From a virus, in IMG/VR virus record IMGVR_UViG_3300046744_000223, positions 96,001 through 160,000 of that record: 64,000 nucleotides of DNA; one strand, 5' to 3'. Both the position numbers and the translations under genes were made by a program. The notes below the pieces were generated by a model. It was not told the origin of the DNA, made no database searches, and was given only the letters and a program-made list of their open reading frames with translations. Positions 14,387 to 31,016 of the stretch are shown piece after piece. Each line of letters starts with the position of its first letter. The first letter of the stretch is position 1.

Positions 14387-15218
14387 TTATATAACTTGTT
14401 ATGTAATTATCTATATCCTTAGTTGGCATCCAACCAAGTATTTCATTAGCAAGTGTATCTTCACAAAGAGTTACCAATGCTTCACCTGGCTTATCATCTT
14501 CATAAACAATATCATCATAGTTGAACATATCTGCTATGTCTTTAACAGAGTAGTTTTTACCTCTACCAAGTTCAAAGTCATACCCATATGCCCCTTGTTC
14601 CATAATCTTTACTAATGCGTCTACGATATCGTCAATATGAGTAAAGTCTCTACGTTTAGTTCCATCACCAAAAATAGTAAGCGACTTCCCATCTTCAATT
14701 GCCTTTTCCCATTTACCAATTAAAGTACAATACCCACCATCTTTTAGATGATGTGGTCCATATACATTGTAAAATCGTGTAATTGATGATTTCAACTCAT
14801 AATGTTTCTGATAAAGTGAAATGATGTCTTCACCCACATCTTTTGAGAATGTGTATGGATTCTTAAATCTACCACTATGTTTTGATGATGAACCAGCGTA
14901 TATGATTGGTACGTTATTATTAGCACACCAATCTACCAAGTTCAGAGTTCCATTTGCATTGGTAGTAAAATATTCTTTGGGTAATTTGAATGATGGTTGG
15001 ATACGGGCAATTGCTGCCAAGTGAAATACAACATCAACATCCATAAACTCAGTAATGTTTCTGAGGTCGTGGTTTAGATACTTACATCCTTTTTGATGAT
15101 TTTGTACATTACCAGTATAATAATTGTCGATAGATACTACATTGTGTCCATCTTTCAATAATCTTTTGATGAGGTTTGTTCCTACAAAACCTGCACCACC
15201 TGTAACTAATATTTTCAT
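14352..15218 (-). CDS. NAD-dependent sugar-nucleotide epimerase/dehydratase
   Basis: GGAGFVG, HLAA, PYTFSK (YxxxK), RFYNVYGP, RDFTHI; start MKILVTGG. Confidence 0.9.
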   Translation of the reverse strand: MKILVTGGAGFVGTNLIKRLLKDGHNVVSIDNYYTGNVQNHQKGCKYLNHDLRNITEFMDVDVVFHLAAIARIQPSFKLPKEYFTTNANGTLNLVDWCANNNVPIIYAGSSSKHSGRFKNPYTFSKDVGEDIISLYQKHYELKSSITRFYNVYGPHHLKDGGYCTLIGKWEKAIEDGKSLTIFGDGTKRRDFTHIDDIVDALVKIMEQGAYGYDFELGRGKNYSVKDIADMFNYDDIVYEDDKPGEALVTLCEDTLANEILGWMPTKDIDNYITSYINEKEHNIHTGN

Positions 15219-15853
15219 TATCCTAATCCTTTCCAAGTTGCACCATTACCAGTATAGTAGTGATTTACTTCAACTTTTGGTGTATATAAATATGATTTAC
15301 CATCTTTTAAAATATCAATTGCCCAATATCTATCTTCTTTTGTAGATAATTCCTCATCAAACGGAGTTTCTATCAAATCAGACTTATTGTAGAAACAAAA
15401 CGCATTATGTAAAAATGGTCTATCTTCAATAGTAGAATGCATATTAACCACCTCACTATCTACAAAATGAGACCATATATATCTCTTGTTAATTTTCTTT
15501 CCACGATATATTGGAATTTGATTACCAAATACTGCTGAATGAAACTTTAGTAATGATTGGACCGATTTCAAATCCATCTTAGTAATTTGAGAGTGTGCTG
15601 ATAGTATCAATATAATATCATTACTACACATATTGACTGCCACATTCAACGATTTACCTGGTGTATAGTTTTCTATATTAGAGGTTATTATATTGAGTCG
15701 TGTATTGAATAGTGTAACTACATCCATAGAATCATCAGTAGAGTTGTTATCCATCACAATCACCTCTGCATTAGGAATGTGGTCACATATAGATTGTAGT
15801 GTAAACCCAATATATTCACCCTCATTTCTATTTCTAACTATGATACTTATCAT
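15218..15853 (-). CDS. Glycosyltransferase family 2
   Basis: [23 protein letters not shown]...ED motifs. Confidence 0.8.
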
Positions 15854-16656
15854 TTAAATATCCTCGATAATGTTGTATAATCAATAGCTTGTGCTGGGTC
15901 ACTTATAGACATATCTGGATTGGGGTGTGATTCTATAATCAACCCATCAGCACCAATGGCCATTGCAGCTTTAGATACCGGCTCTACAAAATTACGATAT
16001 CCAGTTGAATGACTTGGGTCATATATGATTGGGATGTTAGTAAACTCTTTCAAAGCAGGAATCATCATAAGGTCAGGTGCCCAACGTGTTGTTGGGTGTA
16101 TGTGTCTATAAGATGGCATTCCAACTACACCTCTAAGACATATAGCAACATTTCTATTACCACCTACTAAGATTCGTTCAACTGCGCCTAAGATTTCATC
16201 AAGAGTTCCCCAAGTACCTCGTTTGAGTAATACTGGAGTATCTTGCTTTCCAAGAGCGTCTAATAGTGTATAGTTCTGAAAATTACGAGTTCCTATTTGA
16301 AATACATCGGCAACCTCACCAACTTCATCAATCATACTCGCATCCATTACTTCAGTAACAATTGGGAGTCCAGATTCCTTCTTAGCAATCGCCAACAACT
16401 CAAGACCTTCTTTACGAAGACCCTCTTTCCACCCATTAGTTTCTTTTGTGATTGGGAATGTACATGGTTTGTAAGCACCTGCTCTTAGAGCATCCGCGCC
16501 ACATCTTTTCATATCTTTTGCAATCTCAATGATTGACTCACCCTCAACTGAACAAGGACCTGCAATCTTGAAGTAATCCCAATTGAAGGTTTCGTTTGGG
16601 TCGATTGAAATGTTTAACTTACCTTGGTCTTTTAGTGACTGAATGTATTCGTTCAT
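15850..16656 (-). CDS. DAHP synthase class I-beta-like aldolase (variant KPCT motif)
   Basis: [43 protein letters not shown]; lacks regulatory domain. Confidence 0.85.
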
Positions 16657-17195
16657 TTGTAATATTGTTTTACTTTTTCTAAATCATCTTCAGTATGGAT
16701 ATCAGTAGCAGTTTCCTTTACACATCCGATTCGGTAACTAACTTTACCTTGTTTGAGTAAGTCGTACTTGAATAATCTCATTGCACCACTCCTACGATAT
16801 GTGTCATCTACCGTAATGATATCATCATACTTATTGTCAATCATATAGTCAAGACACTCATCAAGAGTGTTGACTCGATTGGGGTTATCTGGTTGTAATC
16901 CAACTACAATATCATACTCTTCTTTGATTTCATTGATGATGTGTTCATACACATCTACGACCTCAACATCCCCACACAAATCAGCAGGCCTCTTGTGGAA
17001 TCTTACTTCGTATTTATTACAAATCTCCTCAACAACATCACTCTCAGATGATACGATAACCTCTACATGGTATTGACTTGCGTTTGCGTAATCAACTGAA
17101 TGTAGGAACATGGGTTTACCATCAATCTCTCTAATGTTCTTGTGTTTTAGTCTTTTAGAATCCAGCTTTGCTGGAATTATTGCTAGTACTCTCAT
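16653..17195 (-). CDS. CMP-ulosonate synthetase (NeuA/KdsB-like cytidylyltransferase)
   Basis: [29 protein letters not shown]. Confidence 0.85.
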
Positions 17196-18115
17196 AATTT
17201 ATCTATACTCCATTTATATGCTTTGGTCTGACCTTGTATGGTCATTCCTCCTGTATGTGGTGTAAATATACAATTTAATTTTGAATTTTCCAAATTAAAG
17301 AATGGTGATTTAGATGGGTCACCAAACTCATTTTCGATAACATCAGTACCATACCCCCACAACTTACACTCGTGTAGTGCCTTTATGATATCAGTTTCAT
17401 TTACAATCTCACCACGGGATGTATTTACCAAGAACTTAACACCACGTGAAAGTAAATCATAATCAATCATATGTCGTGTTTCGTTTGTGACGTGTACGTG
17501 AAGTGATACTGCGTCACATATGTCAAACAACTCTTCCAATGTGTCAATATTAGACTCATCTGAATATGGGTCGTGGATGTAAACCTCAGCATCAAACGCT
17601 CTACAAAACTTAGCCATCATCTTACCCAATCTACCATAACCAACGATGCCAACTTTGTAGTCTTTCATTTGCTGGCCTACAAATGGTAGGTAATCCCAAC
17701 TTTTATCTCGTTTGGTCACATTGTTTGACATTGTGATGTTTCTCATCAAGTCAAGGAGTATCCCAAACGCCAATTCTGAGGTAGATGGTAGTTGATTGAT
17801 TAGTTCGAAGTCGTTTTTATGACATTGGATTTCAATACCCACCGATTCACAATATTCTAAGTCAATGTGATTTAGTCCGGTAGATGCGGTATTGATAATA
17901 CGAACCATAGTATTCCGTAACAACCCCTCATCAATTTTGTAACTTTGTTGATTTGGATTGCAGAATATAGTATCAATTGGGTTGTTAAGTAATAATTCTC
18001 TAACTTGGTGCCGTGTCCCATATTCTAACATAAAAACATCACCTTTTGAATCTAACAACTCAACTACCCCATCCAAATGGGTTACGGGAGTAACAACTGC
18101 AATCTTATTTTTCAT
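17192..18115 (-). CDS. D-isomer-specific 2-hydroxyacid dehydrogenase
   Basis: GIVGYGRLG, SLHVH, VNTSRG, TDV..E, TPHTGG. Confidence 0.88.
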   Translation of the reverse strand: MKNKIAVVTPVTHLDGVVELLDSKGDVFMLEYGTRHQVRELLLNNPIDTIFCNPNQQSYKIDEGLLRNTMVRIINTASTGLNHIDLEYCESVGIEIQCHKNDFELINQLPSTSELAFGILLDLMRNITMSNNVTKRDKSWDYLPFVGQQMKDYKVGIVGYGRLGKMMAKFCRAFDAEVYIHDPYSDESNIDTLEELFDICDAVSLHVHVTNETRHMIDYDLLSRGVKFLVNTSRGEIVNETDIIKALHECKLWGYGTDVIENEFGDPSKSPFFNLENSKLNCIFTPHTGGMTIQGQTKAYKWSIDKL

Positions 18116-18768
18116 TACATTGATTGTAAATCTTTCTCAAATAACTCAATACCCGTTGTAGTCAATGCGTGTTCGAACATTTGTTCAAGTACTTTCAATG
18201 GTACTGTGATTACATCAGCTCCTGCTTTTGCTGCTTTGACAACGTGCATTGGATGTCTTACACTTGAAACCATAATGTTAGTGTCAAACGAATATCTCTC
18301 GTTAAAGGTTTTTACCAACTCACCAATAAACAACATAGCATCATGACCCGTGTCATCAAGTCTACCAACTAACGGACAAATGTAAGTGGAATTAACATTA
18401 GCACATAGTATAGCCTGATTATGTGAGAATATCAGATGCATATTTGTTTTATCACCATTACGTGTTGCAGAATTACAGGCGTCAATACCTGCAGGTGAGA
18501 ATGGAATTTTAAAAACCAAATCAATGTCATTTGATTTTGCTTTTAATCGTTCGATATTAGATAAGATTTCATCCTTAGTAGTACCCCATGCTTCAACGTG
18601 AATTTCACCAACTGGCATAACTCCTCTGATTTTTTTAATCATATCGATGTCGTCATCCATACCATGTCGTTTCGCCAAAGTAGGGTTCGTAGTAACTCCG
18701 GCTAATATACCCATATCTGAGTATTTTTGAATTGAACTTAATTCTAAAGTGTCTAAAAATACTTTCAT
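18115..18768 (-). CDS. tal: Transaldolase (TalC/FSA family)
   Basis: FLDT, GVTTNPTL, VFKIP Schiff-base Lys, PLVGRLDD, SVRHP. Confidence 0.88.
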   Translation of the reverse strand: MKVFLDTLELSSIQKYSDMGILAGVTTNPTLAKRHGMDDDIDMIKKIRGVMPVGEIHVEAWGTTKDEILSNIERLKAKSNDIDLVFKIPFSPAGIDACNSATRNGDKTNMHLIFSHNQAILCANVNSTYICPLVGRLDDTGHDAMLFIGELVKTFNERYSFDTNIMVSSVRHPMHVVKAAKAGADVITVPLKVLEQMFEHALTTTGIELFEKDLQSM

Positions 18769-18779
18769 AATTTTACGTT

Positions 18780-19250
18780 TTATTTAATTGATTTTAATGT
18801 TACTTTTAACTGACCTTTACGTCTATCCGTAGTAAACTTTTGAGATACCATCTCGTAGTTACAGGTTATGCCATACGTATGTGCTATTCTATAATGATTT
18901 GATTTACCATTGATTCCACCATGCCACTTTGAACAAAAGTAACCAAACGACTCCTCATTAAAAACTCGCTTGTGTGTTGGGTCTGCTAATGCCATTGCAG
19001 ATGCTTCATGAGGTACTACGATATCTATCGTACCACCTGGTTTTAGGATTCGCCACAACTCATTCATAACAAAAATAATATTATCAATGTGTTCTAATAT
19101 CATAATTGCTTTGATTTCACTAACCGTATTATCATCGAGTGGAATTCCCTTTTCGATATCACAACAAATATCTGGATTTACTGATGGGTCAATATCAACA
19201 TTTAAGAATCCTGGAAACTTTTCTTTGTATGAACCTAAGTTTAATTTCAT
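18780..19250 (-). CDS. SAM-dependent methyltransferase (type 11-like)
   Basis: KLNLGS, NVDI, ILEHI, RILKPGG, DPTH. Confidence 0.8.
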   Translation of the reverse strand: MKLNLGSYKEKFPGFLNVDIDPSVNPDICCDIEKGIPLDDNTVSEIKAIMILEHIDNIIFVMNELWRILKPGGTIDIVVPHEASAMALADPTHKRVFNEESFGYFCSKWHGGINGKSNHYRIAHTYGITCNYEMVSQKFTTDRRKGQLKVTLKSIK

Positions 19251-19846
19251 AATTTTATTTTTTTTAGTGATAACAAATGATATGGATTACTATGTGCTTT
19301 TCTACCTGGCTGATACCACTCATCTACAACGTCAAATCCATTCTCGATTAGTTGACTACTGAGTAACTCTCCATCAATTTCCCAATGTTTATGATGTTCA
19401 CCTTTTAGACTTTTTGGTGTTTTTTGCATATGTGGGTGTGAAACTATCAAATGACCACCTAACTCTAATAACTCATAAAACTTCATACAAGTTTCAATTA
19501 GAGGATTCTCTAAGTGTTCTAATGTTTCTAAACTAACGATGACATCAAACTTACCATTCACATTATTCTGAAAATCAGATTCTAAATCAATTACATCGTA
19601 TGTTATATTTTCAGCACCCCAATACGTTCTACAATATTCTAATGCTTCTTCTGAGTTATCCAATGATAATACTGACTTGGCACTTTGTGCTAAAATATTA
19701 GAACCATACCCAATCCCACAAGCTGCATCTAATACGACATCACCATCACTAACAAACTTATTAGCAAACCGATACCTTTCTACGTGTTTTGGTTCAATTT
19801 CTTGAATATTTTTACCTATTTGGCGTTCGCCATTGAATCCATCCAT
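19247..19846 (-). CDS. Class I SAM-dependent methyltransferase
   Basis: H..RY, VLDAACGIGYG, FDVIVSLETLEH. Confidence 0.88.
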   Translation of the reverse strand: MDGFNGERQIGKNIQEIEPKHVERYRFANKFVSDGDVVLDAACGIGYGSNILAQSAKSVLSLDNSEEALEYCRTYWGAENITYDVIDLESDFQNNVNGKFDVIVSLETLEHLENPLIETCMKFYELLELGGHLIVSHPHMQKTPKSLKGEHHKHWEIDGELLSSQLIENGFDVVDEWYQPGRKAHSNPYHLLSLKKIKL

Positions 19847-19855
19847 AATTTTATT

Positions 19856-20164
19856 TTATATTTCTTCTATTCTTTTTGTTTTGTCACAAATCAATAAGTC
19901 GTATGGTGGTTTCTCACCTACACTCAGGTGGTGATATTTACATCCCCAATCATCCAATTGCTTCTTAGTTACATCATACCAATCAATTCCCGTAGTACTT
20001 CCACGAGCGGTCCAATAGGTTATAGTATGACCTTCATCATACAATATACGAATTTTTTCTATATTTTCCAAATTTGGAATAGCTTCTGAGTAATCTGGAT
20101 TTATATAAGTTCTATTTTCATAAAAACATATGGTCTCATCTATATCAACGTATATATTCATCAT
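19856..20164 (-). CDS. Minimal HAD phosphatase (capsule-biosynthesis type; candidate ulosonate-phosphate phosphatase)
   Basis: VDIDETI, WTARG, KPPYDLLICDK. Confidence 0.8.
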   Translation of the reverse strand: MMNIYVDIDETICFYENRTYINPDYSEAIPNLENIEKIRILYDEGHTITYWTARGSTTGIDWYDVTKKQLDDWGCKYHHLSVGEKPPYDLLICDKTKRIEEI

Positions 20165-20973
20165 CTAATAACTTTACATATATTATTTAACATTGTTTCA
20201 AAATCACTTAATTTAATTGAGCTTGTTCCATCCGATAGTGCGTTATCTGGATCATCATGTACTTCTAAGAACATACCATCTACACCTACGGCTGCAGCAG
20301 CCTTTGCTAATGGTTCTATAAAATGTTTATTAGACCCACTGCTACCACCAGAACACCCTTTTTGAACTGCATGAGTTGCATCAAATATAACGGGAGCGTA
20401 TTCTCTCATAGTTACTAAGTTTCTCATGTCCACTACATAGTCACCATACCCAAAGGTATTTCCACGTTCGGTTAGAACAACTTTGTTATTATCAGATGAT
20501 ACTACTTTATCAACCACCCTCTCCATATCCAATCCATTTACAAATTGTGCTTTTTTAATATTTACTGGAAGGTTTGTTTTTGCAGAAGCCACCAATAAAT
20601 CAGTTTGTCTACATAAAAATGCTGGTATTTGTATTAGGTCAATTGAATCTTTTAATACATCAGCTTGCCATGGTTCGTGTATGTCAGTAGTTACTGGAAT
20701 ATCTAATTCAGTACGGATTTTATTAAATATACGAGATGCTTCTTCAATAGAAACTCCTCTGTAGTTTTGTAACCGAGTTCGATTTGCTTTATCAAAAGAT
20801 GCTTTAAAAATAAAAGGAATACCCAACTTAGAAGTAATACGTTTTAACTCACGTGCCATATGTAAGGTATGTTCTTCACTTTCTATGACACATGGGCCGG
20901 ATATCAATACAAATGGCAATGATTCGCCAAATGTTATACCATCTCTTATTGTAACTGATTTAATTTTTTTCAT
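20161..20973 (-). CDS. kdsA: 3-deoxy-D-manno-octulosonate 8-phosphate synthase
   Basis: GPCVIES, KASFDKANRT, QIPAFLCRQTDL, ERG, DATH, EVH..P..ALSDG. Confidence 0.9.
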   Translation of the reverse strand: MKKIKSVTIRDGITFGESLPFVLISGPCVIESEEHTLHMARELKRITSKLGIPFIFKASFDKANRTRLQNYRGVSIEEASRIFNKIRTELDIPVTTDIHEPWQADVLKDSIDLIQIPAFLCRQTDLLVASAKTNLPVNIKKAQFVNGLDMERVVDKVVSSDNNKVVLTERGNTFGYGDYVVDMRNLVTMREYAPVIFDATHAVQKGCSGGSSGSNKHFIEPLAKAAAAVGVDGMFLEVHDDPDNALSDGTSSIKLSDFETMLNNICKVIR

Positions 20974-21613
20974 TTGCTAAACATTCTGCTATTTTAAAAT
21001 CACTTGGTGTATCAATGTCCCATGCTTCCAACATATCAACTGTTTTAATATATGGGTTGAAGCCAATTCTTCTTTTGTGTTTCTTATACATATCCTTCGA
21101 GAATATATATAATCCGGAGTTTTCAACAATAATTGGCTTTAAGTCTTGAGTACGACTAATAGTTGAAGACATATTATAATTTAAGGGATTACCATCATAC
21201 CAACAAAAATTGTTTACTTCATATGCTAAAAATGCCGAATCGTATTCGTTTGACTTTATTTTGTCTATCATATCTACTATGGTAGATTGTTTTACGAATG
21301 GGGAAGTTACTGATAAAAATACAATATAGTCTGTATTTATATCATCTATAACCGAATCCAATATATCGTTAAATGTAACATAGTCCCCATCAAACTTGGT
21401 ATCTCTTTTTAAGAATGTATAGTCTAAACTTGGATTTATGTAATCCACAACAGTGTCATCACTACAATACAAAAGTGTATCACTAATATCAGAAATTCCT
21501 GCTGCCTTGTCCACGCATATATTAACTAACGGATTACTATTAAGTGTCTTTATACTTTTTTGTGGTAATCGCTTACTATTTAGTCTAACTGTTATGTATG
21601 CTGTAAACTTCAT
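20960..21613 (-). CDS. Second CMP-ulosonate synthetase (NeuA-like)
   Basis: VRLNSKRLPQK, TSPF, RTQDL..ENSGLYI, DIDTPSDF. Confidence 0.85.
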   Translation of the reverse strand: MKFTAYITVRLNSKRLPQKSIKTLNSNPLVNICVDKAAGISDISDTLLYCSDDTVVDYINPSLDYTFLKRDTKFDGDYVTFNDILDSVIDDINTDYIVFLSVTSPFVKQSTIVDMIDKIKSNEYDSAFLAYEVNNFCWYDGNPLNYNMSSTISRTQDLKPIIVENSGLYIFSKDMYKKHKRRIGFNPYIKTVDMLEAWDIDTPSDFKIAECLANEKN

Positions 21614-22326
21614 TTTTTTCTTGTTCTTAGGTTATCATATTCGAATGGATTTAGAAGCATTATTTTATTTTCAGAAATCCAGTTTTGTACAAAGTCCATT
21701 TGTCTAAATCTATGCTTATCACCTTTAAAGTAATCTTTTCGATTCTTTTTGTGTTCAGCATCTTCTTCTTTATTGTAAAAGTTTAAAGCCCTGTCATCCT
21801 CACCACCTTCTAGGTAAAAGGTATGTCCTATAATTGTTATTTTAGAAAAGTTAATAATTGCCCTATCTAATGTAATTAAACCAGTACCAACTCCTATGAA
21901 CTTTCCTAAAGCTTGATTTTTTTTATACTTATGTCTGAACTCCTTACCACCATAGTGTTTCGTTAAAAACCCCCAAGTATCACTATGTACATTTACATTA
22001 TCAAACTCATGGTATCTATGACTCATCTCGTGACCTACATCATCTTTTCTTGGCCAAATTGTAAGCGGTTCGGATTTGATTGGATGAAAATAATCCCATC
22101 TATAATTGCCAGTAGTAGACCAAATATCTATTTTCCTACCTGTGTGTTGATACATACCATCGAAAAAACATTTATTTACTCTAATTACAGTTTTAAACTT
22201 ATCAATATATTTACCAAAATTATAACAATTCAAAGATGGGCTTGTACCAACTACTATTACATCGGTTTGTGGTTCAAATGTCTCAAAGTAGTTGTCTAAC
22301 TTTTTAATATTGTCCAAAATCACCAC
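21610..22326 (-). CDS. GT29 (sialyltransferase)-like glycosyltransferase
   Basis: Sialylmotif-L-like VVGTSPSL..FG..ID.F..VIRVN....G...TGRK; motif-S-like GTGL. Confidence 0.65.
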   Translation of the reverse strand: MVILDNIKKLDNYFETFEPQTDVIVVGTSPSLNCYNFGKYIDKFKTVIRVNKCFFDGMYQHTGRKIDIWSTTGNYRWDYFHPIKSEPLTIWPRKDDVGHEMSHRYHEFDNVNVHSDTWGFLTKHYGGKEFRHKYKKNQALGKFIGVGTGLITLDRAIINFSKITIIGHTFYLEGGEDDRALNFYNKEEDAEHKKNRKDYFKGDKHRFRQMDFVQNWISENKIMLLNPFEYDNLRTRKK

Positions 22327-22862
22327 ACCATTACTTTGTTATTCTCAATAAGGGTATTTACATAATCTATTTCAAGATTCCAACTATGATTGCCAGGTAT
22401 ATCTGATGACCCCTCTACTCCCCAATAATGATTAGTCTTTCCAAAATCAAATCCAACCAAGTTTAACACCTCATATGTATCTAACAAATAGTTAATTGTT
22501 AGAATGCCAGTAGACATTTTTTTAGAACCTAATTTGAAATCGGATATGTGGTAATCAAATCCATCATAGTTACTCTTTATATCCTCCAATCTACCAACTC
22601 GCTTATCAGTATTAGTAATCGTGGTAGTTTTAATTAAGTTTGGGTGTTGGTTTTTTATACTCTCTATGTTATTTACATAGTAGTTTCTACTATCGGTAGT
22701 AAGTGCATTGTTAAGTATCCAATGAGTACATTTGTTACCTATATAATCTTCAAATCCACGTACTCTGAATCTATTGAATCTATAAACGTGGTCGTATGAA
22801 TCAATCAGACTACCATGCTTTTGGGTTGTGTCGGCATTACCTACTAAGATACATTTATTCAT
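22320..22862 (-). CDS. GT29 (sialyltransferase)-like glycosyltransferase
   Basis: CILVGN..G.LIDSYD.VYRFN....G...IG.K (motif L), STG...GFDF (motif S), HY, H....E (motif VS). Confidence 0.75.
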   Translation of the reverse strand: MNKCILVGNADTTQKHGSLIDSYDHVYRFNRFRVRGFEDYIGNKCTHWILNNALTTDSRNYYVNNIESIKNQHPNLIKTTTITNTDKRVGRLEDIKSNYDGFDYHISDFKLGSKKMSTGILTINYLLDTYEVLNLVGFDFGKTNHYWGVEGSSDIPGNHSWNLEIDYVNTLIENNKVMVW

Positions 22863-23539
22863 TTCTTACCTGTGTGCTTTCCGGTTTGTAAAAAATATTC
22901 ATTGTCTCTACTATCACCTTTCAAAAAGTGATACTCAAATCCAAGTTTCCACATAACATAGTCAAAACTTAATTGGTCTCTACGTGAGTTATACTTTATT
23001 TCATCCCACCATGCTTCCATAGATTCAATGACGTGTTCATCATTATGATTTCTTAATATAATTGGATTTGTAGCTAACCCATTATTTTGTGGATATCCCT
23101 CATCTAAGTATCTCTGAACTTGGGTATACATGGTTTGTGGATTGTCCTTGTAATTACCACCATTAGACTTACCCAAACTCATTATTGCCTCATACTCTTT
23201 GTAAATACAATCTCGTGGGTCCAGTCTTGTTTGATTATGGTCAAATACCTGATACGGGTGTTTGTTTACCAATGGTGTAAAATCTTTTCTAACCAATATA
23301 TTACCATCAATCCATAACGAACAATCGTATTCTGATAAATATCTATGTGGTAATATTTTGTATTTTTTAGCGTTACGATTTGGGTCTGAATATATTGGTG
23401 TAGATTTAATAATCTTCCAAGTATCCGATTTTATATCCATATCAGTAAAGCATATATAATCAACACCATCTATTATTTGTTGATTTTCATGTAGATTATC
23501 ATACCCACCAAAGATTGAAGTATAAACGGCTATTTTCAT
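22859..23539 (-). CDS. DUF616 (TOD1/MUCI70-like) glycosyltransferase
   Basis: VYTSIFGGYD, CFTD, KILPHRYL, WIDGN, RDQLSF. Confidence 0.8.
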   Translation of the reverse strand: MKIAVYTSIFGGYDNLHENQQIIDGVDYICFTDMDIKSDTWKIIKSTPIYSDPNRNAKKYKILPHRYLSEYDCSLWIDGNILVRKDFTPLVNKHPYQVFDHNQTRLDPRDCIYKEYEAIMSLGKSNGGNYKDNPQTMYTQVQRYLDEGYPQNNGLATNPIILRNHNDEHVIESMEAWWDEIKYNSRRDQLSFDYVMWKLGFEYHFLKGDSRDNEYFLQTGKHTGKK

Positions 23540-24384
23540 ATGTAATGCTCACTTCTTACTAAGTTAGAGCCAAGATTGGGTCTAGCTACTGTGTATGTTG
23601 GTGTATAATTTGCAATCGTATCATTAACACCGGTCTGATTACCAACGTTAAATTTAGCCTTGCTTTTGATATATAATTGAATACGTGTGTCAACGTGTCT
23701 GAGGTCTAAACACTTTTTATATTTCAATCCAAATTGATTTTTTGTAGTCCAATAAAACATTGGTAATTTATATTCATTGATTTTTGATTGGATTTTCTCA
23801 ACTCCAGTGCCATCAAATCTATTTGATATCAATAGAGTACCAAAATCACCATTAACGTGTTCTCTAATAATAGAATTACCCAACTCTCTTTCAGAATCAG
23901 ACCAATAAACTTCCGGCTCAATATCGTCAAAAGAATCAAATTGCCAAAACTTTAATATTTCTTCCATAAGTGGGATTTTATAAACACCTAAGTCATCATA
24001 TATTCTATAATGGTCATTGAATACCTCCCCTTCAAATGAATCTACAAATCCATCTATATATGGGTTGTTGTCAAAAATAGTATGAACCACTTGAAACGGG
24101 TCTGACCATGATGACCAATTTTGCTCTAAGTGACCAAATAACTCTCTTAACAATTTTGGTGATGGTATCCAAACCTTACAATCAGGATATTTTTCTTTTA
24201 ATTTACGTGGAAACGCAGAGATAATTCCCCAATCCCCAACACCAAAACAAGTTCTTAGGATTACAAAGTTTTTACCTTCCAAGTATTCATCAGGAATATA
24301 GGAAGGGTCACTTAAAGGAAACCCTAACTTATCAACCTCTTGTATAGGAAGTACTTTATTATCGAATGTTCTCCAAAATACCAT
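23536..24384 (-). CDS. Putative GT9-like glycosyltransferase
   Basis: GVGDW...PRKLKEKYPDCKV, NNPYID, VGNQTG; start MVFW coupled to upstream stop. Confidence 0.6.
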   Translation of the reverse strand: MVFWRTFDNKVLPIQEVDKLGFPLSDPSYIPDEYLEGKNFVILRTCFGVGDWGIISAFPRKLKEKYPDCKVWIPSPKLLRELFGHLEQNWSSWSDPFQVVHTIFDNNPYIDGFVDSFEGEVFNDHYRIYDDLGVYKIPLMEEILKFWQFDSFDDIEPEVYWSDSERELGNSIIREHVNGDFGTLLISNRFDGTGVEKIQSKINEYKLPMFYWTTKNQFGLKYKKCLDLRHVDTRIQLYIKSKAKFNVGNQTGVNDTIANYTPTYTVARPNLGSNLVRSEHYI

Positions 24385-25220
24385 TATGAAACTGCCCTTC
24401 CTTCCATACCTTCCCAATCCTTATCAGTTCTAACCTCTTGATTAGTTTTCTCAGTAGCCGATAGGACATTGTTTGTTGTGTTTAATAATTCCGTAAGTTT
24501 CAACATAGCTGATAAATCTTTAGGGAAACAATGTCCACCAAATCCTAAATCACCATCAGGACCAGGAACAGCCCAATGTGATTTACCTAACCTATCATCA
24601 TATGTCGCATATTCTACAACCTTATCATAGTCCAATGATAGTTTATCACATACTTGATAAATCTCATTTGCAAAAGAAACTTTTGTAGCTAAGAACGTAT
24701 TAGTTACATACTTTACCATTTCTGCGTGTGTAGAGCCAGTCTTTATGATTGGTGTGGTAGGAAAAACTAAACGATAGATTTGTTTAAGTGGAGTGGTTCC
24801 TTTACGTGGGCCCCCTAAGATAATCTTTGATTGGTTCTCAAAGTCTTGTACTGCGTTTGCTTCGGTTAAGAATTCCGGATTGAACACAATTGTGATACTC
24901 TTAAAGTTATTGTTAAACATCTCGGTTGTAGTTGGTGGAATTGTAGATTTGATAACCACAACAACATCCTTACCTACGTTATTGATTTGAGACAATACCG
25001 ATTCCACAATTGAAATGTCACACGACCCATCAACTCTCTTCATTGGAGTGGGTACACATACAAATACAACATCCGAAGCTTCGACTACCTCTTTTAGGGT
25101 ATCCGTAGTTCTTTTAGACCCATCAAGGTCATAGGTTAAAACGCTAAAATAGTTTTTAAACTTTTGGTAAATGGCATTTCCTACAAAGCCTTGACCCACT
25201 ATTCCAATATTATATTTCAT
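24384..25220 (-). CDS. ugd: UDP-glucose/GDP-mannose dehydrogenase family (no C-terminal domain)
   Basis: GQGFVG, VCVPTP, KSTIPP, NPEFL, AEMVKY..N, GFGGHCFPKD. Confidence 0.88.
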   Translation of the reverse strand: MKYNIGIVGQGFVGNAIYQKFKNYFSVLTYDLDGSKRTTDTLKEVVEASDVVFVCVPTPMKRVDGSCDISIVESVLSQINNVGKDVVVVIKSTIPPTTTEMFNNNFKSITIVFNPEFLTEANAVQDFENQSKIILGGPRKGTTPLKQIYRLVFPTTPIIKTGSTHAEMVKYVTNTFLATKVSFANEIYQVCDKLSLDYDKVVEYATYDDRLGKSHWAVPGPDGDLGFGGHCFPKDLSAMLKLTELLNTTNNVLSATEKTNQEVRTDKDWEGMEGRAVS

Positions 25221-29180: not shown

Positions 29181-31016
29181 CTAATTTTTAAAATACATCA
29201 TATCGTTGATTACTAATATATCAACATCAGACTCATCAAATAATTTCATTGCATCTTCGGGCGTTTCCACAATAGGTTCACCTTTTACATTCAGTGAAGT
29301 ATTTAGTACAACTGGCACACCAGTTATGTCCTTAAATTTAGAAATCAAATCGTAAAATATAGGGTTATGGTCTCTTGTTAAAGTCTGAACACGTGATGTA
29401 TTGTCTATATGAACTGCTGATGGTATTTCTTGTGGCTTTCTACATGGTACAGTATGTAACATAAATGGTGACTCAAAATCCATATTGAACCACTCCTCCT
29501 TATCTTCGGTTAACACTACTGGCGCAAATGGTCTAAACCATTCTCTGAATTTAACTCTTGAGTTTAGAATATCCTTCATCTCTTTATTACGAGGGTCACT
29601 TATAAAAGAACGATTACCCAATGCACGTGGACCTACTTCAGAGTGACCTTGATACCAACACACAATTTTACCATCAGCAATATTTTGAGCAACTACATCC
29701 AAATCTAATGGAACTGCATTTGTGTCAGTTTCAGGTTGGTGGTCATATGTAACACCTAAATAAGCAAGTTCATTTGTAGTGTAGTTAACACGTTTACCAC
29801 CTAAATTAAAGTGATAGTAAAACAATGCCGAACCAGCTGGTATCCCATCATCACCACACGCTGGGAAAAAGTGTATATTCTTAAATTTTGTTTCTTTTAA
29901 TATCTTATAATTTGCGTTACAATTTAAAAATGTACCACCGGCTAAACACAAATTACCATCGTTGAAATTTTTAGTATCTTCATATAATTCATTGATATAC
30001 TTAATAAGAGCACGTTCTAATAAATATTGAATACTTGCAGCAATATCCATGACTTCTTGAGAATCTGATTCTTCTTTTGAATACACTGTTTGGTATATTC
30101 TATTTATAAACTGATAACCTGGTTCTTTATTTACGTACTCTTTACGTGCTGTACTTATGAATGGGTATCTACCACTGATTTCTGAAAATAACCAATCACT
30201 ATATCGGTGATATTCAGTACTAATTTGATTAAATGGGAGACACCACTTTTCCCACTGCTCCATGGTCTTACCATTTACATTACCGAATGAAGATAATCCC
30301 ATTAATGTACCTGCTTTTAATGTTCCCGGCCCTAACCCACAAAACTCAGTAGCTACATCATAGAAGTTCCCCAACATAAATTCAGGAGATTTAAAAGATT
30401 GTAGTATACTACCATTACCAACCATTGAGGTACTACAATTTTTTGGAGTATGCATCGAAGCGTCGGCCGTAAATACAGCTGCCCTTGGAAATGGTGATGT
30501 ATAAAATGCAGCTGCAGCATGGGCAGTATGATGTCTTACAAAGCAACCATTAATTGGTCGGGTGTACCCCTCTATATCAATTATCAATGGAAATGATTCA
30601 CTATGTTGTATCACTTCAGGCCCAAATGGAGGGTCGATGTTGTCTATAAATTCCGGCAGAGATATCCCAAGCCCATCAACATATTCTGGTTTGTATGGAA
30701 ACTCATCCAAGTGGTTGAGTATTCTCGTGTCTTGTCGTTGTGCGCCAAATGTATTAAGTGGATAAACGGAATTGGTTGGGCTGTATAGTTTTATCCAATT
30801 ACAATTATTATAGTTCCAAAATGCCATTGTGATACAATCTATATCATCAATAGTCATTTCGTTTACTTGTAGAAAGTGGTTAAAGAACTCTCTACTTAAT
30901 ACTTCATCTTTCTTTACCCTACTGTATCTTTCAACGCTTAATGATGATACTAATTTGCCATTACGTACTAACGATAATGATGCATCATGGCCGGTGTGCA
31001 TTCCTATTATATTCAT
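29181..31016 (-). CDS. Carbamoyltransferase (NodU/CmcH/TobZ family)
   Basis: GHDAS, ERYSRVK, HHTAHA, LMGL, LAGG..LN, GDDG, EVGPRALGNRS, KFREWFRPFAP, LNTSLN. Confidence 0.92.
   Translation of the reverse strand: MNIIGMHTGHDASLSLVRNGKLVSSLSVERYSRVKKDEVLSREFFNHFLQVNEMTIDDIDCITMAFWNYNNCNWIKLYSPTNSVYPLNTFGAQRQDTRILNHLDEFPYKPEYVDGLGISLPEFIDNIDPPFGPEVIQHSESFPLIIDIEGYTRPINGCFVRHHTAHAAAAFYTSPFPRAAVFTADASMHTPKNCSTSMVGNGSILQSFKSPEFMLGNFYDVATEFCGLGPGTLKAGTLMGLSSFGNVNGKTMEQWEKWCLPFNQISTEYHRYSDWLFSEISGRYPFISTARKEYVNKEPGYQFINRIYQTVYSKEESDSQEVMDIAASIQYLLERALIKYINELYEDTKNFNDGNLCLAGGTFLNCNANYKILKETKFKNIHFFPACGDDGIPAGSALFYYHFNLGGKRVNYTTNELAYLGVTYDHQPETDTNAVPLDLDVVAQNIADGKIVCWYQGHSEVGPRALGNRSFISDPRNKEMKDILNSRVKFREWFRPFAPVVLTEDKEEWFNMDFESPFMLHTVPCRKPQEIPSAVHIDNTSRVQTLTRDHNPIFYDLISKFKDITGVPVVLNTSLNVKGEPIVETPEDAMKLFDESDVDILVINDMMYFKN

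What the first reader, a model, noticed from the sequence alone, without database searches (positions are those of the whole stretch)
15218..22862. Two parallel ulosonic-acid synthesis, CMP-activation and transfer modules in a phage glycan island
Seen: module B = HAD phosphatase + KdsA + NeuA-like cytidylyltransferase + two GT29-like transferases. Module A = transaldolase + 2-hydroxyacid dehydrogenase + a second cytidylyltransferase + DAHP-synthase-like aldolase + GT2. Two methyltransferases lie between them. Established: KdsA, a phosphatase and a CMP-transferase make CMP-Kdo, and GT29 enzymes use CMP-ulosonate donors. DAHP synthase normally feeds the shikimate pathway, but no other aro gene is present in this window. 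Inference: module A makes and CMP-activates a 7-carbon (or otherwise non-canonical) ulosonate, for example a 3-deoxy-heptulosonic/heptulosaric acid (Dha-type) sugar. Transaldolase would supply the tetrose and the dehydrogenase would adjust oxidation state. The phage would then decorate its virion or host surface with both Kdo and this second acid sugar, a pairing known from plant RG-II and green-algal scales.
Basis: partly seen in the sequence, partly recalled or inferred. Interest (0 to 1): 0.88.

Follow-up and report, generated by a model that had tools for sequence, protein, structure and literature searches.

The report
Second acid-sugar pathway in marine phage
A large marine phage carries an ordinary Kdo-making gene set and, next to it, a conserved four-gene cassette that most likely builds, CMP-activates and attaches a different, still unidentified Kdo-like acid sugar; the same enzyme trio also occurs in bacteria and has not been described.

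Summary
The gene content is confirmed: twelve co-oriented, tightly packed minus-strand genes of the families named.

Supported:
- A cassette of 2-hydroxyacid dehydrogenase, short cytidylyltransferase, DAHP-synthase-like aldolase and GT2 recurs in the same order in 11 of 11 related viral contigs (GT2 in 10).
- The aldolase keeps all metal and PEP residues. The Arg of the KPR(T/S) motif is Cys in 120 of 120 close homologs.
- It belongs to a non-Arg clade (support 0.958). Its members, in bacteria too, sit beside an orthologous cytidylyltransferase ("DIH" for "DID") and usually an orthologous GT2 whose DXD motif is replaced by S-A/G-H.
- One bacterial genome has this paralog plus canonical DAHP synthases and KdsA.
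- The phage genome has no aroB, EPSP synthase or KdsD.

Not supported:
- The transaldolase belongs to the Kdo side. KdsA-phosphatase-transaldolase is a contiguous trio in seven other viral contigs that show no cassette gene in the stretches fetched.
- Nothing shows a 7-carbon or Dha-type product. Chain length is open.
- The GT29-like genes follow the cassette's island (5 of 11 loci), not KdsA (0 of 10).

Earlier scan notes cover this same genome only.

The parts
15218..15853 (-). GT2_211: small GT-A glycosyltransferase of family GT2 without a DXD motif; candidate transferase for the module A sugar
   Evidence: Pfam Glycos_transf_2, 62 bits. The AF2 model has pLDDT 89 and its best structural matches are AvpGT, TarS, TarP and SpsA. 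The DXD position reads S-A-H-S against TarS D-S-D-D. Orthologs next to non-Arg aldolases in phage and bacterial loci share (L/I)S(A/G)H, GxQ, FHNA, PFDE and EDRxWA. It follows the aldolase in 10 of 11 viral loci.
15850..16656 (-). DAHP-synthase class I-beta-like PEP aldolase, non-Arg (KPCT) subfamily
   Evidence: Metal ligands C35, H216, E242 and D253 and the family-invariant Lys/Arg residues K63, R124, K145, R146, R175 and R191, which include the PEP ligands, are kept. R65C and S67F/Y are fixed. There are two 6-residue loop insertions. NCBIfam scores are below the cut-offs.
16653..17195 (-). CT180: minimal CMP-ulosonate-synthetase-like cytidylyltransferase
   Evidence: Pfam CTP_transf_3, 63.5 bits. 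The AF2 model has pLDDT 94, with TM 0.86-0.89 to CMP-Neu5Ac, CMP-Pse and CMP-Kdn synthetases, 0.73-0.81 to KdsB and about 0.70 to IspD. About 30 residues of the dimerisation arm are deleted, and the C-terminal motif is DIH instead of DID. It lies upstream of the aldolase, directly or with one ORF between, in 11 of 11 viral loci.
17192..18115 (-). D-isomer 2-hydroxyacid dehydrogenase (short PGDH-like); first gene of the conserved cassette, role unresolved
   Evidence: The GxGxxG motif and the Arg/Glu/His triad are aligned with 1WWK. It is present upstream of CT180 in 11 of 11 viral loci and in L102.
18115..18768 (-). Small (subfamily 5) transaldolase; belongs with KdsA and HAD, not with module A
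   Evidence: The Schiff-base Lys and the Tal-type Glu are kept. Leu sits at the Phe(Tal)/Tyr(FSA) position. KdsA-HAD-TAL is contiguous in seven other viral contigs and, in the order HAD-KdsA-TAL, in an eighth. TAL is absent from the 11 module A loci.
18780..19250 (-). MT156: methyltransferase-like ORF (only the C-terminal half of the domain matches)
   Evidence: Methyltransf_11, 27.6 bits, profile positions 47-93.
19247..19846 (-). MT199: class I SAM methyltransferase, probable sugar tailoring
   Evidence: Methyltransferases also sit between the dehydrogenase and CT180 in three related loci (L007, L011/L012), and just downstream of the cassette in L003 and L004.
19856..20164 (-). HAD102: minimal HAD-like phosphatase, candidate Kdo-8-P phosphatase
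   Evidence: Motifs DIDET, TARGS and K...CD. The Pfam HAD_PNKP hit is weak. It is adjacent to KdsA in 10 of 10 close KdsA loci.
20161..20973 (-). KdsA, Kdo-8-phosphate synthase (metal type)
   Evidence: NCBIfam NF003543, 355.9 bits against a cut-off of 242. KANRT motif and GPC Cys.
20960..21613 (-). CT217: full-length NeuA/PseF-type cytidylyltransferase, overlaps KdsA by 14 nt; candidate CMP-Kdo synthetase
   Evidence: The DIDTPSD motif is kept. The best solved relative is the PpNeuA CMP-Kdn synthetase (E 1e-10).
21610..22326 (-). GT29-like protein (238 aa)
   Evidence: Pfam Glyco_transf_29, 25.5 bits against a cut-off of 23, motif-L region only. Sequence shows VVGTSPS...VIRVN.
22320..22862 (-). 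GT29-like protein (180 aa)
   Evidence: Pfam Glyco_transf_29, 49.6 bits, profile positions 55-271. Sequence shows LVGNA...VYRFN. A 49%-identical homolog lies directly upstream of the dehydrogenase in L006.

Best explanation
The stretch holds three functional units rather than two symmetrical modules.

(1) Kdo supply trio: KdsA, the HAD phosphatase and a transaldolase. KdsA makes Kdo-8-P from PEP and arabinose-5-P. The small HAD enzyme removes the phosphate. The transaldolase pushes hexose phosphates towards pentose phosphates. A5P itself must come from the host isomerase, because the phage has no SIS/KdsD gene.

(2) Activation and transfer set: CT217 and two GT29-like proteins. CT217 overlaps KdsA and most likely makes CMP-Kdo.

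(3) Cassette: dehydrogenase, CT180, aldolase and GT2_211. I read this as a self-contained pathway for a second 3-deoxy-2-ulosonic acid that is not Kdo.
- A DAHP-synthase-derived aldolase has lost the Arg/Ser phosphate clamp. It condenses PEP with an aldehyde that is probably not phosphorylated, so no phosphatase is needed. This is the logic of NeuB.
- The minimal NeuA-like CT180 makes the CMP-sugar.
- The DXD-less GT2, possibly together with a GT29-like enzyme, transfers the sugar onto a glycan.
- Methyltransferases, and in relatives possible 2OG oxygenases (weak, sub-threshold matches), tailor it.

Shown: the family assignments, the motif changes, the conserved gene order, the clade, and the co-occurrence of the three subfamilies in phages and bacteria.

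Inferred: the non-phosphorylated acceptor, CMP activation of this particular product, GT2 use of a CMP donor, the role of the dehydrogenase, and the target of glycosylation (virion or host surface).

The carbon number of the sugar is unknown.
For: - Conserved order dehydrogenase-CT180-aldolase-GT2 in 11 viral loci, plus L102 at 57% aldolase identity.
- KPCT in 120 of 120 close homologs, against KPR(T/S) in nearly all of the other database representatives listed. All catalytic and PEP positions are kept. R65 and S67 are the only switches shared across the whole clade.
- The non-Arg clade has SH-like support 0.958 and excludes 98 canonical sequences.
- Every non-Arg member with readable context has CTP_transf_3 adjacent, and most have a small GT2: L014, P0129, L102, L103, P0233 and L111.
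- The GT2s are orthologous with a shared S-A/G-H in place of DXD. The GT2 fold is confirmed.
- The cytidylyltransferases share DIH, and CT180 is structurally closest to CMP-nonulosonate synthetases.
- The bacterial genome G001 has two KPRT DAHP synthases, a KANRT KdsA and the KPLT paralog.
- The phage genome lacks DHQ synthase, EPSP synthase and SIS.
- No HAD homolog is present in the 11 module A loci.
- The KdsA-HAD-TAL trio is conserved elsewhere.
- From established knowledge: the Arg of KPR(S/T) in DAHP synthases, and the Arg of KANRS in Kdo8P synthases, binds the phosphate of the aldose phosphate. Sialyltransferases that use CMP donors lack DXD and need no metal.
Against: - No biochemical data exist for any member.
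- GT2 enzymes are not known to use CMP-sugar donors.
- The DIH variant replaces a metal-binding Asp of NeuA-type enzymes, and CT180 lacks the dimerisation arm that completes the active site in NeuA and KdsB, so its activity is not certain.
- Loss of the Arg does not prove loss of phosphate binding. The phage branch gains K71 and R161, which could bind an anion.
- The dehydrogenase has no assigned step.
- Several bacterial loci carry two cytidylyltransferases for one aldolase, which the simple three-step scheme does not explain.
- The contexts of the distant clade members are few (six).
Confidence: 0.55

Rival explanations
1. Module A makes and CMP-activates a 7-carbon acid sugar (DAH or Dha type). 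The transaldolase supplies the tetrose and the dehydrogenase sets the oxidation state.
For: - The aldolase scaffold is that of the E4P-using class I-beta enzymes and keeps the family-invariant Lys63, Pro64 and Asp253. A 4-carbon acceptor is therefore the smallest change.
- A nucleotide-sugar-dehydrogenase-like gene without its C-terminal domain lies nearby, and also in three related loci. It could in principle oxidise a terminal CH2OH.
- Dha exists in bacterial LPS (PMC4019464) and its biosynthesis is unknown (PMC12168206).
Against: - The transaldolase is absent from all 11 other module A loci and is linked to KdsA-HAD instead.
- No result addresses chain length.
- The clade-wide changes are to hydrophobic residues, not to a carboxylate-binding site.
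- DAHP-synthase chemistry gives arabino stereochemistry, whereas Dha is lyxo.
- The dehydrogenase-like gene is present in only 4 of 12 loci.
Confidence: 0.13
2. Module A makes Kdo, or the same sugar as module B, by a phosphate-free route from a free pentose. The two modules would then be redundant or act at different times.
For: - From memory, the unregulated P. furiosus class I-beta enzyme, a close solved relative, accepts 5-carbon sugar phosphates.
- Module A occurs without a KdsA hit in 10 of 11 related loci, so it could be a stand-alone Kdo source.
Against: - This phage keeps both sets, each with its own cytidylyltransferase of a different subtype (DIH against DID).
- G001 has a true KdsA as well as the paralog.
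- L004 has a KdsA directly after the aldolase.
Confidence: 0.1
3. The aldolase is an ordinary DAHP synthase carried as a metabolic gene to boost host aromatic amino acid synthesis. Its neighbours are coincidental.
For: - The best family matches are DAHP synthases.
- JGI annotates homologs as 3-deoxy-7-phosphoheptulonate synthase.
Against: - The invariant Arg is lost in all 120 homologs.
- Scores are below the NCBIfam cut-offs, and the Pfam score is 171 bits against 243-276 for canonical enzymes.
- Synteny with the cytidylyltransferase and GT2 is fixed across phages and bacteria.
- There are no other aro genes.
- G001 has canonical copies as well.
Confidence: 0.05
4. The cassette does not feed a glycan. 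The cytidylyltransferase and the GT-A protein make a CMP- or CDP-linked small molecule, or modify something other than a polysaccharide or protein glycan.
For: - The GT2 lacks DXD, CT180 is atypical, and the dehydrogenase has no place in a simple sugar pathway.
- Radical SAM and B12-radical SAM genes accompany the triad in L014 and L103.
Against: - In phages the cassette always sits among glycosyltransferases, epimerases and sugar dehydrogenases.
- The GT2 keeps the ED acceptor-base motif and the standard GT-A fold.
Confidence: 0.08

Closest known systems
Bacterial sialic/nonulosonic acid pathway (NeuB, NeuA, sialyltransferase)
   Same: It has the same three-step logic proposed for module A: a PEP aldolase acting on a non-phosphorylated aldose, CMP activation by a CTP_transf_3 enzyme, then transfer. 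CT180 is structurally closest to NeuA-type enzymes.
   Different: The aldolase descends from class I-beta DAHP synthase, not NeuB. The weak NeuB Pfam hit is shared by canonical DAHP synthases, so it is not informative. The conserved transferase is a GT2. No amino-sugar genes are present.
Class I-beta DAHP synthase, unregulated type (A. pernix 1VS1, P. furiosus 1ZCO)
   Same: Same TIM-barrel family, length, metal ligands and PEP site. E-values are 1e-54 to 1e-52.
   Different: KPR(T/S) reads KPCT, S67 is F/Y, and there are two 6-residue insertions. It forms a separate clade, has no shikimate context, and scores below the NCBIfam cut-offs.
Kdo pathway KdsD-KdsA-KdsC-KdsB-WaaA; phage kdsA/kdsB in cyanophage S-SCSM2R (PMC12801897)
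   Same: KdsA is a true ortholog. A phosphatase and a cytidylyltransferase are adjacent.
   Different: There is no KdsD. The phosphatase is a 102-aa minimal HAD rather than KdsC. The cytidylyltransferase is NeuA/PseF-like rather than KdsB-like. GT29-like proteins stand where a GT30 WaaA would be expected (I ran no search for GT30). A transaldolase is fused into the unit.
Plant RG-II Kdo/Dha system (GT29-like RCKT1 and SIA2; PMC12168206)
   Same: GT29-like proteins sit next to Kdo synthesis genes. A TOD1/MUCI70-type domain, a UGDH-like gene and an epimerase are nearby.
   Different: This is a prokaryotic virus. No evidence for Dha was found. The plant Dha pathway is itself unknown, so no comparison is possible.
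Cyanophage transaldolase TalC (auxiliary metabolic gene)
   Same: It is a small subfamily-5 transaldolase carried by marine phages.
   Different: It is only about 39% identical to cyanophage TalC. It is physically coupled to KdsA and a phosphatase rather than to photosynthesis or PPP genes. Leu stands at the conserved Phe position.

Membership tests
DAHP synthase class I-beta (EC 2.5.1.54) | DAHP_synth_1 fold with Cys/His/Glu/Asp metal ligands and PEP-binding Lys/Arg residues | tested here: met
   C35, H216, E242, D253, K63, R124, K145, R146, R175 and R191 are all conserved.
DAHP synthase class I-beta (EC 2.5.1.54) | KPR(T/S) motif, whose Arg binds the phosphate of erythrose-4-P | tested here: not met
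   KPCT in the window and in 120 of 120 close homologs. Canonical sequences have R at 100%.
DAHP synthase class I-beta (EC 2.5.1.54) | Score above the curated NCBIfam cut-off | tested here: not met
   264.5 < 335 (NF006421) and 235.7 < 267.75 (TIGR01361).
DAHP synthase class I-beta (EC 2.5.1.54) | Shikimate pathway context or partners in the genome | tested here: not met
   No DHQ synthase or EPSP synthase in the 172.9-kb record. The record is about 90% complete.
Kdo-8-phosphate synthase (KdsA), for 20161-20973 | Equivalog score and KANR(S/T) motif | tested here: met
   355.9 bits against 242 and 345.3 against 314. FDKANRT motif.
CMP-ulosonate synthetase (CTP_transf_3), for CT180 | Pfam score, N-terminal CTP-binding motif and fold | tested here: met
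   63.5 bits against 22.6. [15 protein letters not shown] aligns to the NeuA motif, with Lys for the first Arg. TM 0.86-0.89 to NeuA-type structures.
CMP-ulosonate synthetase (CTP_transf_3), for CT180 | C-terminal DID metal motif and dimerisation arm | tested here: not met
   The motif is DIH, and about 30 residues are deleted. CT217 keeps both features.
Glycosyltransferase family GT2, for GT2_211 | GT-A fold and Pfam score | tested here: met
   62 bits against 23.3. Foldseek probability 1.00 to TarS, TarP and SpsA.
Glycosyltransferase family GT2, for GT2_211 | DXD motif that binds the metal and the diphosphate of the NDP-sugar donor | tested here: not met
   SAHS aligns to TarS DSDD. S-A/G-H is conserved in 9 of the 10 aligned orthologs; the tenth (L014) reads N-A-H, and only the His is invariant.
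Glycosyltransferase family GT29, for the two ORFs at 21610-22862 | Pfam gathering score; sialyl motifs | tested here: inconclusive
   Both pass the gathering score (25.5 and 49.6 against 23). Motif-L-like GN/TxPS...R(V/F)N is visible. The S, III and VS motifs and the fold were not examined.
Transaldolase (subfamily 5), for 18115-18768 | Schiff-base Lys, catalytic Glu, conserved Phe; equivalog score | tested here: inconclusive
   The Lys and Glu are aligned with TacTal K86 and E60. Leu stands at F132. TIGR00875 scores 181.9, below the cut-off of 245.95. There is no FSA-type Gln or Tyr.
D-isomer 2-hydroxyacid dehydrogenase, for 17192-18115 | NAD-binding GxGxxG and the Arg/Glu/His catalytic triad | tested here: met
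   Alignment to 1WWK shows GIVGYGRLG, NTSRG, IENE and TPHTG. No equivalog cut-off is reached.

The most novel reading that the evidence does not exclude
Three subfamilies together define a previously unrecognised third product class of the DAHP/Kdo8P synthase family. They are the non-Arg aldolase, the DIH cytidylyltransferase and the DXD-less GT2. Under this reading they make a new CMP-activated ulosonic acid in marine phages and in several bacterial lineages. The GT2 would be the first member of its family to use a CMP-sugar donor. If the acceptor is a 4-carbon aldehyde, the cassette would give the first genetic handle on DAH- or Dha-type sugars.
Probability: 0.3. Interest if true: 0.85.

Novelty: new variant of a known kind. 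Interest (0 to 1): 0.64.

Why it matters
CMP-activated ulosonic acids (Kdo, sialic, pseudaminic and legionaminic acids) are key surface sugars for recognition by phages, grazers and immune systems. The known pathways use either KdsA or NeuB-type aldolases.

A third aldolase lineage with its own dedicated activating enzyme and transferase would add a new sugar, or at least a new route, to this set. It would also widen the donor range of the largest glycosyltransferase family. The aldolase family is abundant in ocean metagenomes: the search returned at least 120 clusters at 75% identity or more.

It would also show that common marine phages carry complete pathways for acid-sugar decoration. The cassette has four small genes and can be tested directly by expression and mass spectrometry.

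The linkage of a transaldolase to KdsA also suggests a new use for a classic phage metabolic gene.

Tried and rejected
- **NeuB likeness of the aldolase.** The 25-bit Pfam NeuB hit looked suggestive. Canonical KPRT enzymes hit NeuB as well or better (25-49 bits), so it is not evidence.
- **FSA-type aldolase making arabinose-5-P directly from glycolaldehyde and G3P.** Rejected as the leading reading. The enzyme has the Tal-type Glu and lacks the FSA Gln and Tyr.
- **Scan of bacterial genomes with the clade alignment.** One of the two patterns also matches canonical enzymes. Only L111 was useful, so the distribution in cellular genomes remains unmeasured.
- **DNA search of phage isolates.** It found no relative of the island. 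The closest isolate by DNA polymerase is Microcystis phage Mel-JY01 at 48.5%. The host is unknown.
- **Promoter and terminator scan.** Counts were no different from shuffles, so it gives no operon boundaries.
- **Literature searches.** They found no description of the triad and no open paper on the KPR(S/T) motif. That point rests on my knowledge of the DAHP and Kdo8P synthase literature.
- **ESM Atlas look-up of the GT2.** It added only that similar clusters are viral or bacterial.
- **The two GT29-like ORFs as halves of one split gene.** They show no similarity to each other, and each has its own motif-L-like start.

Full report
**Setting.** The window is bases 96001-160000 of a 172,940-bp IMG/VR virus record estimated to be 90% complete. 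It has about 35% G+C, and nearly all genes lie on the minus strand. It encodes a T4-type family B DNA polymerase, ribonucleotide reductase and a DnaB-like helicase. The nearest isolate by polymerase is Microcystis phage Mel-JY01, at only 48.5% identity, so the host is unknown. Close homologs of the genes studied come mostly from marine metagenomes, including Tara samples.

**Observation.** Twelve minus-strand ORFs fill 15218-22862 with small overlaps or 9-11 nt gaps. KdsA is a true ortholog: 355.9 bits against a cut-off of 242, with a KANRT motif. The second member of the same Pfam family, at 15850-16656, matches class I-beta DAHP synthase models best but falls below their cut-offs. The genome holds exactly two DAHP_synth_1 genes, two CTP_transf_3 genes and one transaldolase. 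It has no SIS/KdsD, no DHQ synthase and no EPSP synthase. The 102-aa ORF has the HAD DxDxT motif and later motifs.

**Module A is a conserved cassette, without the transaldolase.** A scan of viral contigs with the aldolase returned 11 loci at 62-84% identity. All 11 carry the dehydrogenase and the short cytidylyltransferase upstream. Ten carry the small GT2 at or shortly downstream of the aldolase, directly after it in nine. None carries the transaldolase or the HAD gene. Only one (L004) has a KdsA. Between the dehydrogenase and the cytidylyltransferase, or between the cytidylyltransferase and the aldolase, some loci hold extra ORFs. Three are methyltransferases and two are weakly 2OG-oxygenase-like; further methyltransferases, including FkbM and TylF types, lie just downstream of the cassette in L003 and L004. 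This points to variable tailoring. A more distant relative (57% identity, L102) shows the same four genes in the same order, preceded by methyltransferases.

**The transaldolase belongs with KdsA.**
- Scans with the transaldolase and with KdsA hit the same contigs.
- In seven other contigs the order is KdsA, HAD, transaldolase with no gaps, at 77-88% identity. L031 has HAD, KdsA, transaldolase at 44-64% identity.
- Of the ten close KdsA loci, all have the HAD gene and eight have the transaldolase next to it. One contig ends before that position.
- In L021 the trio sits among replication and nucleotide genes, with no cytidylyltransferase or glycosyltransferase nearby. The trio therefore moves as a unit of its own.
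- The enzyme has the Schiff-base Lys and the transaldolase-type Glu, with Leu at the position that is Phe in transaldolases and Tyr in fructose-6-phosphate aldolases. I read it as a transaldolase that raises pentose phosphate supply for Kdo-8-P synthesis.

**The aldolase.**
- Against solved class I-beta enzymes it aligns end to end (E 1e-54). KPRTSP is replaced by KPCTFP, and there are two 6-residue insertions.
- All 120 close database homologs have KPCT.
- In a column-by-column comparison with 98 canonical sequences, every metal and PEP position is kept. R65 and S67 are the only switches shared by all non-Arg relatives. The phage branch also changes F71K, Y161R and E174L.
- A tree places the phage family with four other short non-Arg sequences (KPAT, KPLT, KPCT) in one clade, with support 0.958 and no canonical sequence inside.
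- From established knowledge, this Arg binds the phosphate of the aldose phosphate in DAHP synthases, as the Arg of KANRS does in Kdo8P synthases. Its replacement by Cys, Leu or Ala, next to an aromatic residue, argues for an acceptor without a terminal phosphate. That would explain why the cassette has no phosphatase. This step is inference.

**The triad extends to bacteria.**
- Each non-Arg sequence with readable context sits beside a CTP_transf_3 gene, and most sit beside a small GT2.
- L014 is a marine MAG with Ldh_2, two radical SAM genes and a GT2-cytidylyltransferase fusion.
- The P0129 contig has two cytidylyltransferases, a Gfo/Idh/MocA oxidoreductase, a shikimate-dehydrogenase-like gene, NeuB and GT2 genes.
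- L103, L111 (an Acidobacteriota MAG) and the P0233 contig show the same association.
- The genome that holds L111 also has two canonical KPRT DAHP synthases and a KANRT KdsA. The paralog is therefore neither of those enzymes there.

**Partner enzymes.**
- The GT2s next to these aldolases are orthologous (29-55% identity). They share invariant His87, GxQ, FHNA, PFDE and EDRxWA motifs, and (L/I)S(A/G)H where GT2 enzymes have DXD.
- The model (pLDDT 89) has an ordinary GT-A fold closest to TarS, TarP, AvpGT and SpsA.
- Loss of the metal/diphosphate motif is what one would expect of an enzyme using a nucleoside monophosphate sugar. No GT2 is known to do so, and this remains a hypothesis.
- The cytidylyltransferases of these loci share a C-terminal DIH where NeuA-type enzymes, and CT217 of this phage, have DID.
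- The phage CT180 branch also lacks about 30 residues of the dimerisation arm. Its model (pLDDT 94) fits CMP-Neu5Ac, CMP-Pse and CMP-Kdn synthetases (TM 0.86-0.89) better than KdsB or IspD.

**GT29-like genes and CT217.** Both GT29-like ORFs pass the Pfam gathering score and are unrelated in sequence to each other. Homologs occur in 5 of the 11 module A loci, once directly upstream of the dehydrogenase. They occur in none of the ten close KdsA loci. They therefore follow the glycan island rather than KdsA and may serve either CMP-sugar. CT217 overlaps KdsA by 14 nt, so I assign it to Kdo by position only.

**What remains open.**
- The chain length and identity of the module A sugar are unknown.
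- The step catalysed by the dehydrogenase is unknown. Its catalytic triad is intact. It is conserved only in the phage branch, and other oxidoreductase families replace it in bacterial loci.
- It is not clear why several bacterial loci have two cytidylyltransferases.
- The target of glycosylation is unknown.
- Dha is a real bacterial and plant sugar with unknown biosynthesis (PMC4019464, PMC12168206), but nothing here singles it out.

**Verdict.** The Kdo part is a known kind; kdsA and kdsB have been reported in a cyanophage (PMC12801897). The cassette is a new variant of the aldolase, CMP-synthetase, transferase scheme. It is built from uncharacterised subfamilies and can be tested directly.

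Noticed in passing
L016-L022, L024-L031 (for example L021:6589-8341): KdsA, a 101-aa HAD phosphatase and a small transaldolase form a contiguous trio in seven other viral contigs (an eighth, L031, has the order HAD-KdsA-TAL). In L021 the trio lies among DNA polymerase, GTP cyclohydrolase I, MazG-like, chaperonin and clamp-loader genes, with no cytidylyltransferase or glycosyltransferase nearby. This linkage of a phage transaldolase to Kdo synthesis appears undescribed.
   Followed up: partly
window 24384-25220 (-): A nucleotide-sugar dehydrogenase-like gene of 278 aa matches only positions 66-296 of the 413-position family profile. It lacks the C-terminal nucleotide-sugar-binding domain. Homologs lie near the cassette in L005, L009 and L013. 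The next ORF (23536-24417) has no family match.
   Followed up: no
window 22859-23539 (-): A TOD1/MUCI70 glycosyltransferase-like domain (Pfam 59 bits), a family known mainly from plant pectin synthesis, is encoded by a phage next to GT29-like genes. Homologs are in L006 and L009.
   Followed up: no
L004:8001-9594: In one related viral contig the non-Arg aldolase is followed directly by a KdsA-like gene (43% identical to the window's KdsA) instead of the GT2. Methyltransferases (one of FkbM type) and a GT29-like gene follow.
   Followed up: no
L014:7317-8672: A marine MAG encodes a 451-aa fusion of the DXD-less GT2 with a CTP_transf_3 domain. It lies two genes from the non-Arg aldolase, flanked by a SPASM radical SAM gene and a B12-binding radical SAM gene.
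   Followed up: no
G001 (genome of L111): L187, L188, L189, L190: One Acidobacteriota MAG carries four DAHP_synth_1 paralogs: two class I-alpha KPRT enzymes, a KANRT KdsA and the KPLT variant. The variant's neighbours include two cytidylyltransferases, a GT4, a GT2 and a sulfotransferase.
   Followed up: partly
window 18780-19250 (-): MT156 matches only the second half of the methyltransferase domain (profile positions 47-93, starting at residue 28). It may lack a normal SAM-binding motif I.
   Followed up: no
window 19944-20068; Synechococcus phage Bellamy gene 212: The only DNA-level match of the region to an isolated phage is a 125-bp stretch of the HAD-like gene (74% identity). RefSeq annotates that gene as phosphoheptose isomerase and GenBank as hypothetical. 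The isomerase label looks doubtful.
   Followed up: no
window 29181-31016 (-): A Nol-like carbamoyltransferase (PHROG 1601, 407 bits) lies at the upstream edge of the glycan island. A homolog lies within the island of L006.
   Followed up: no
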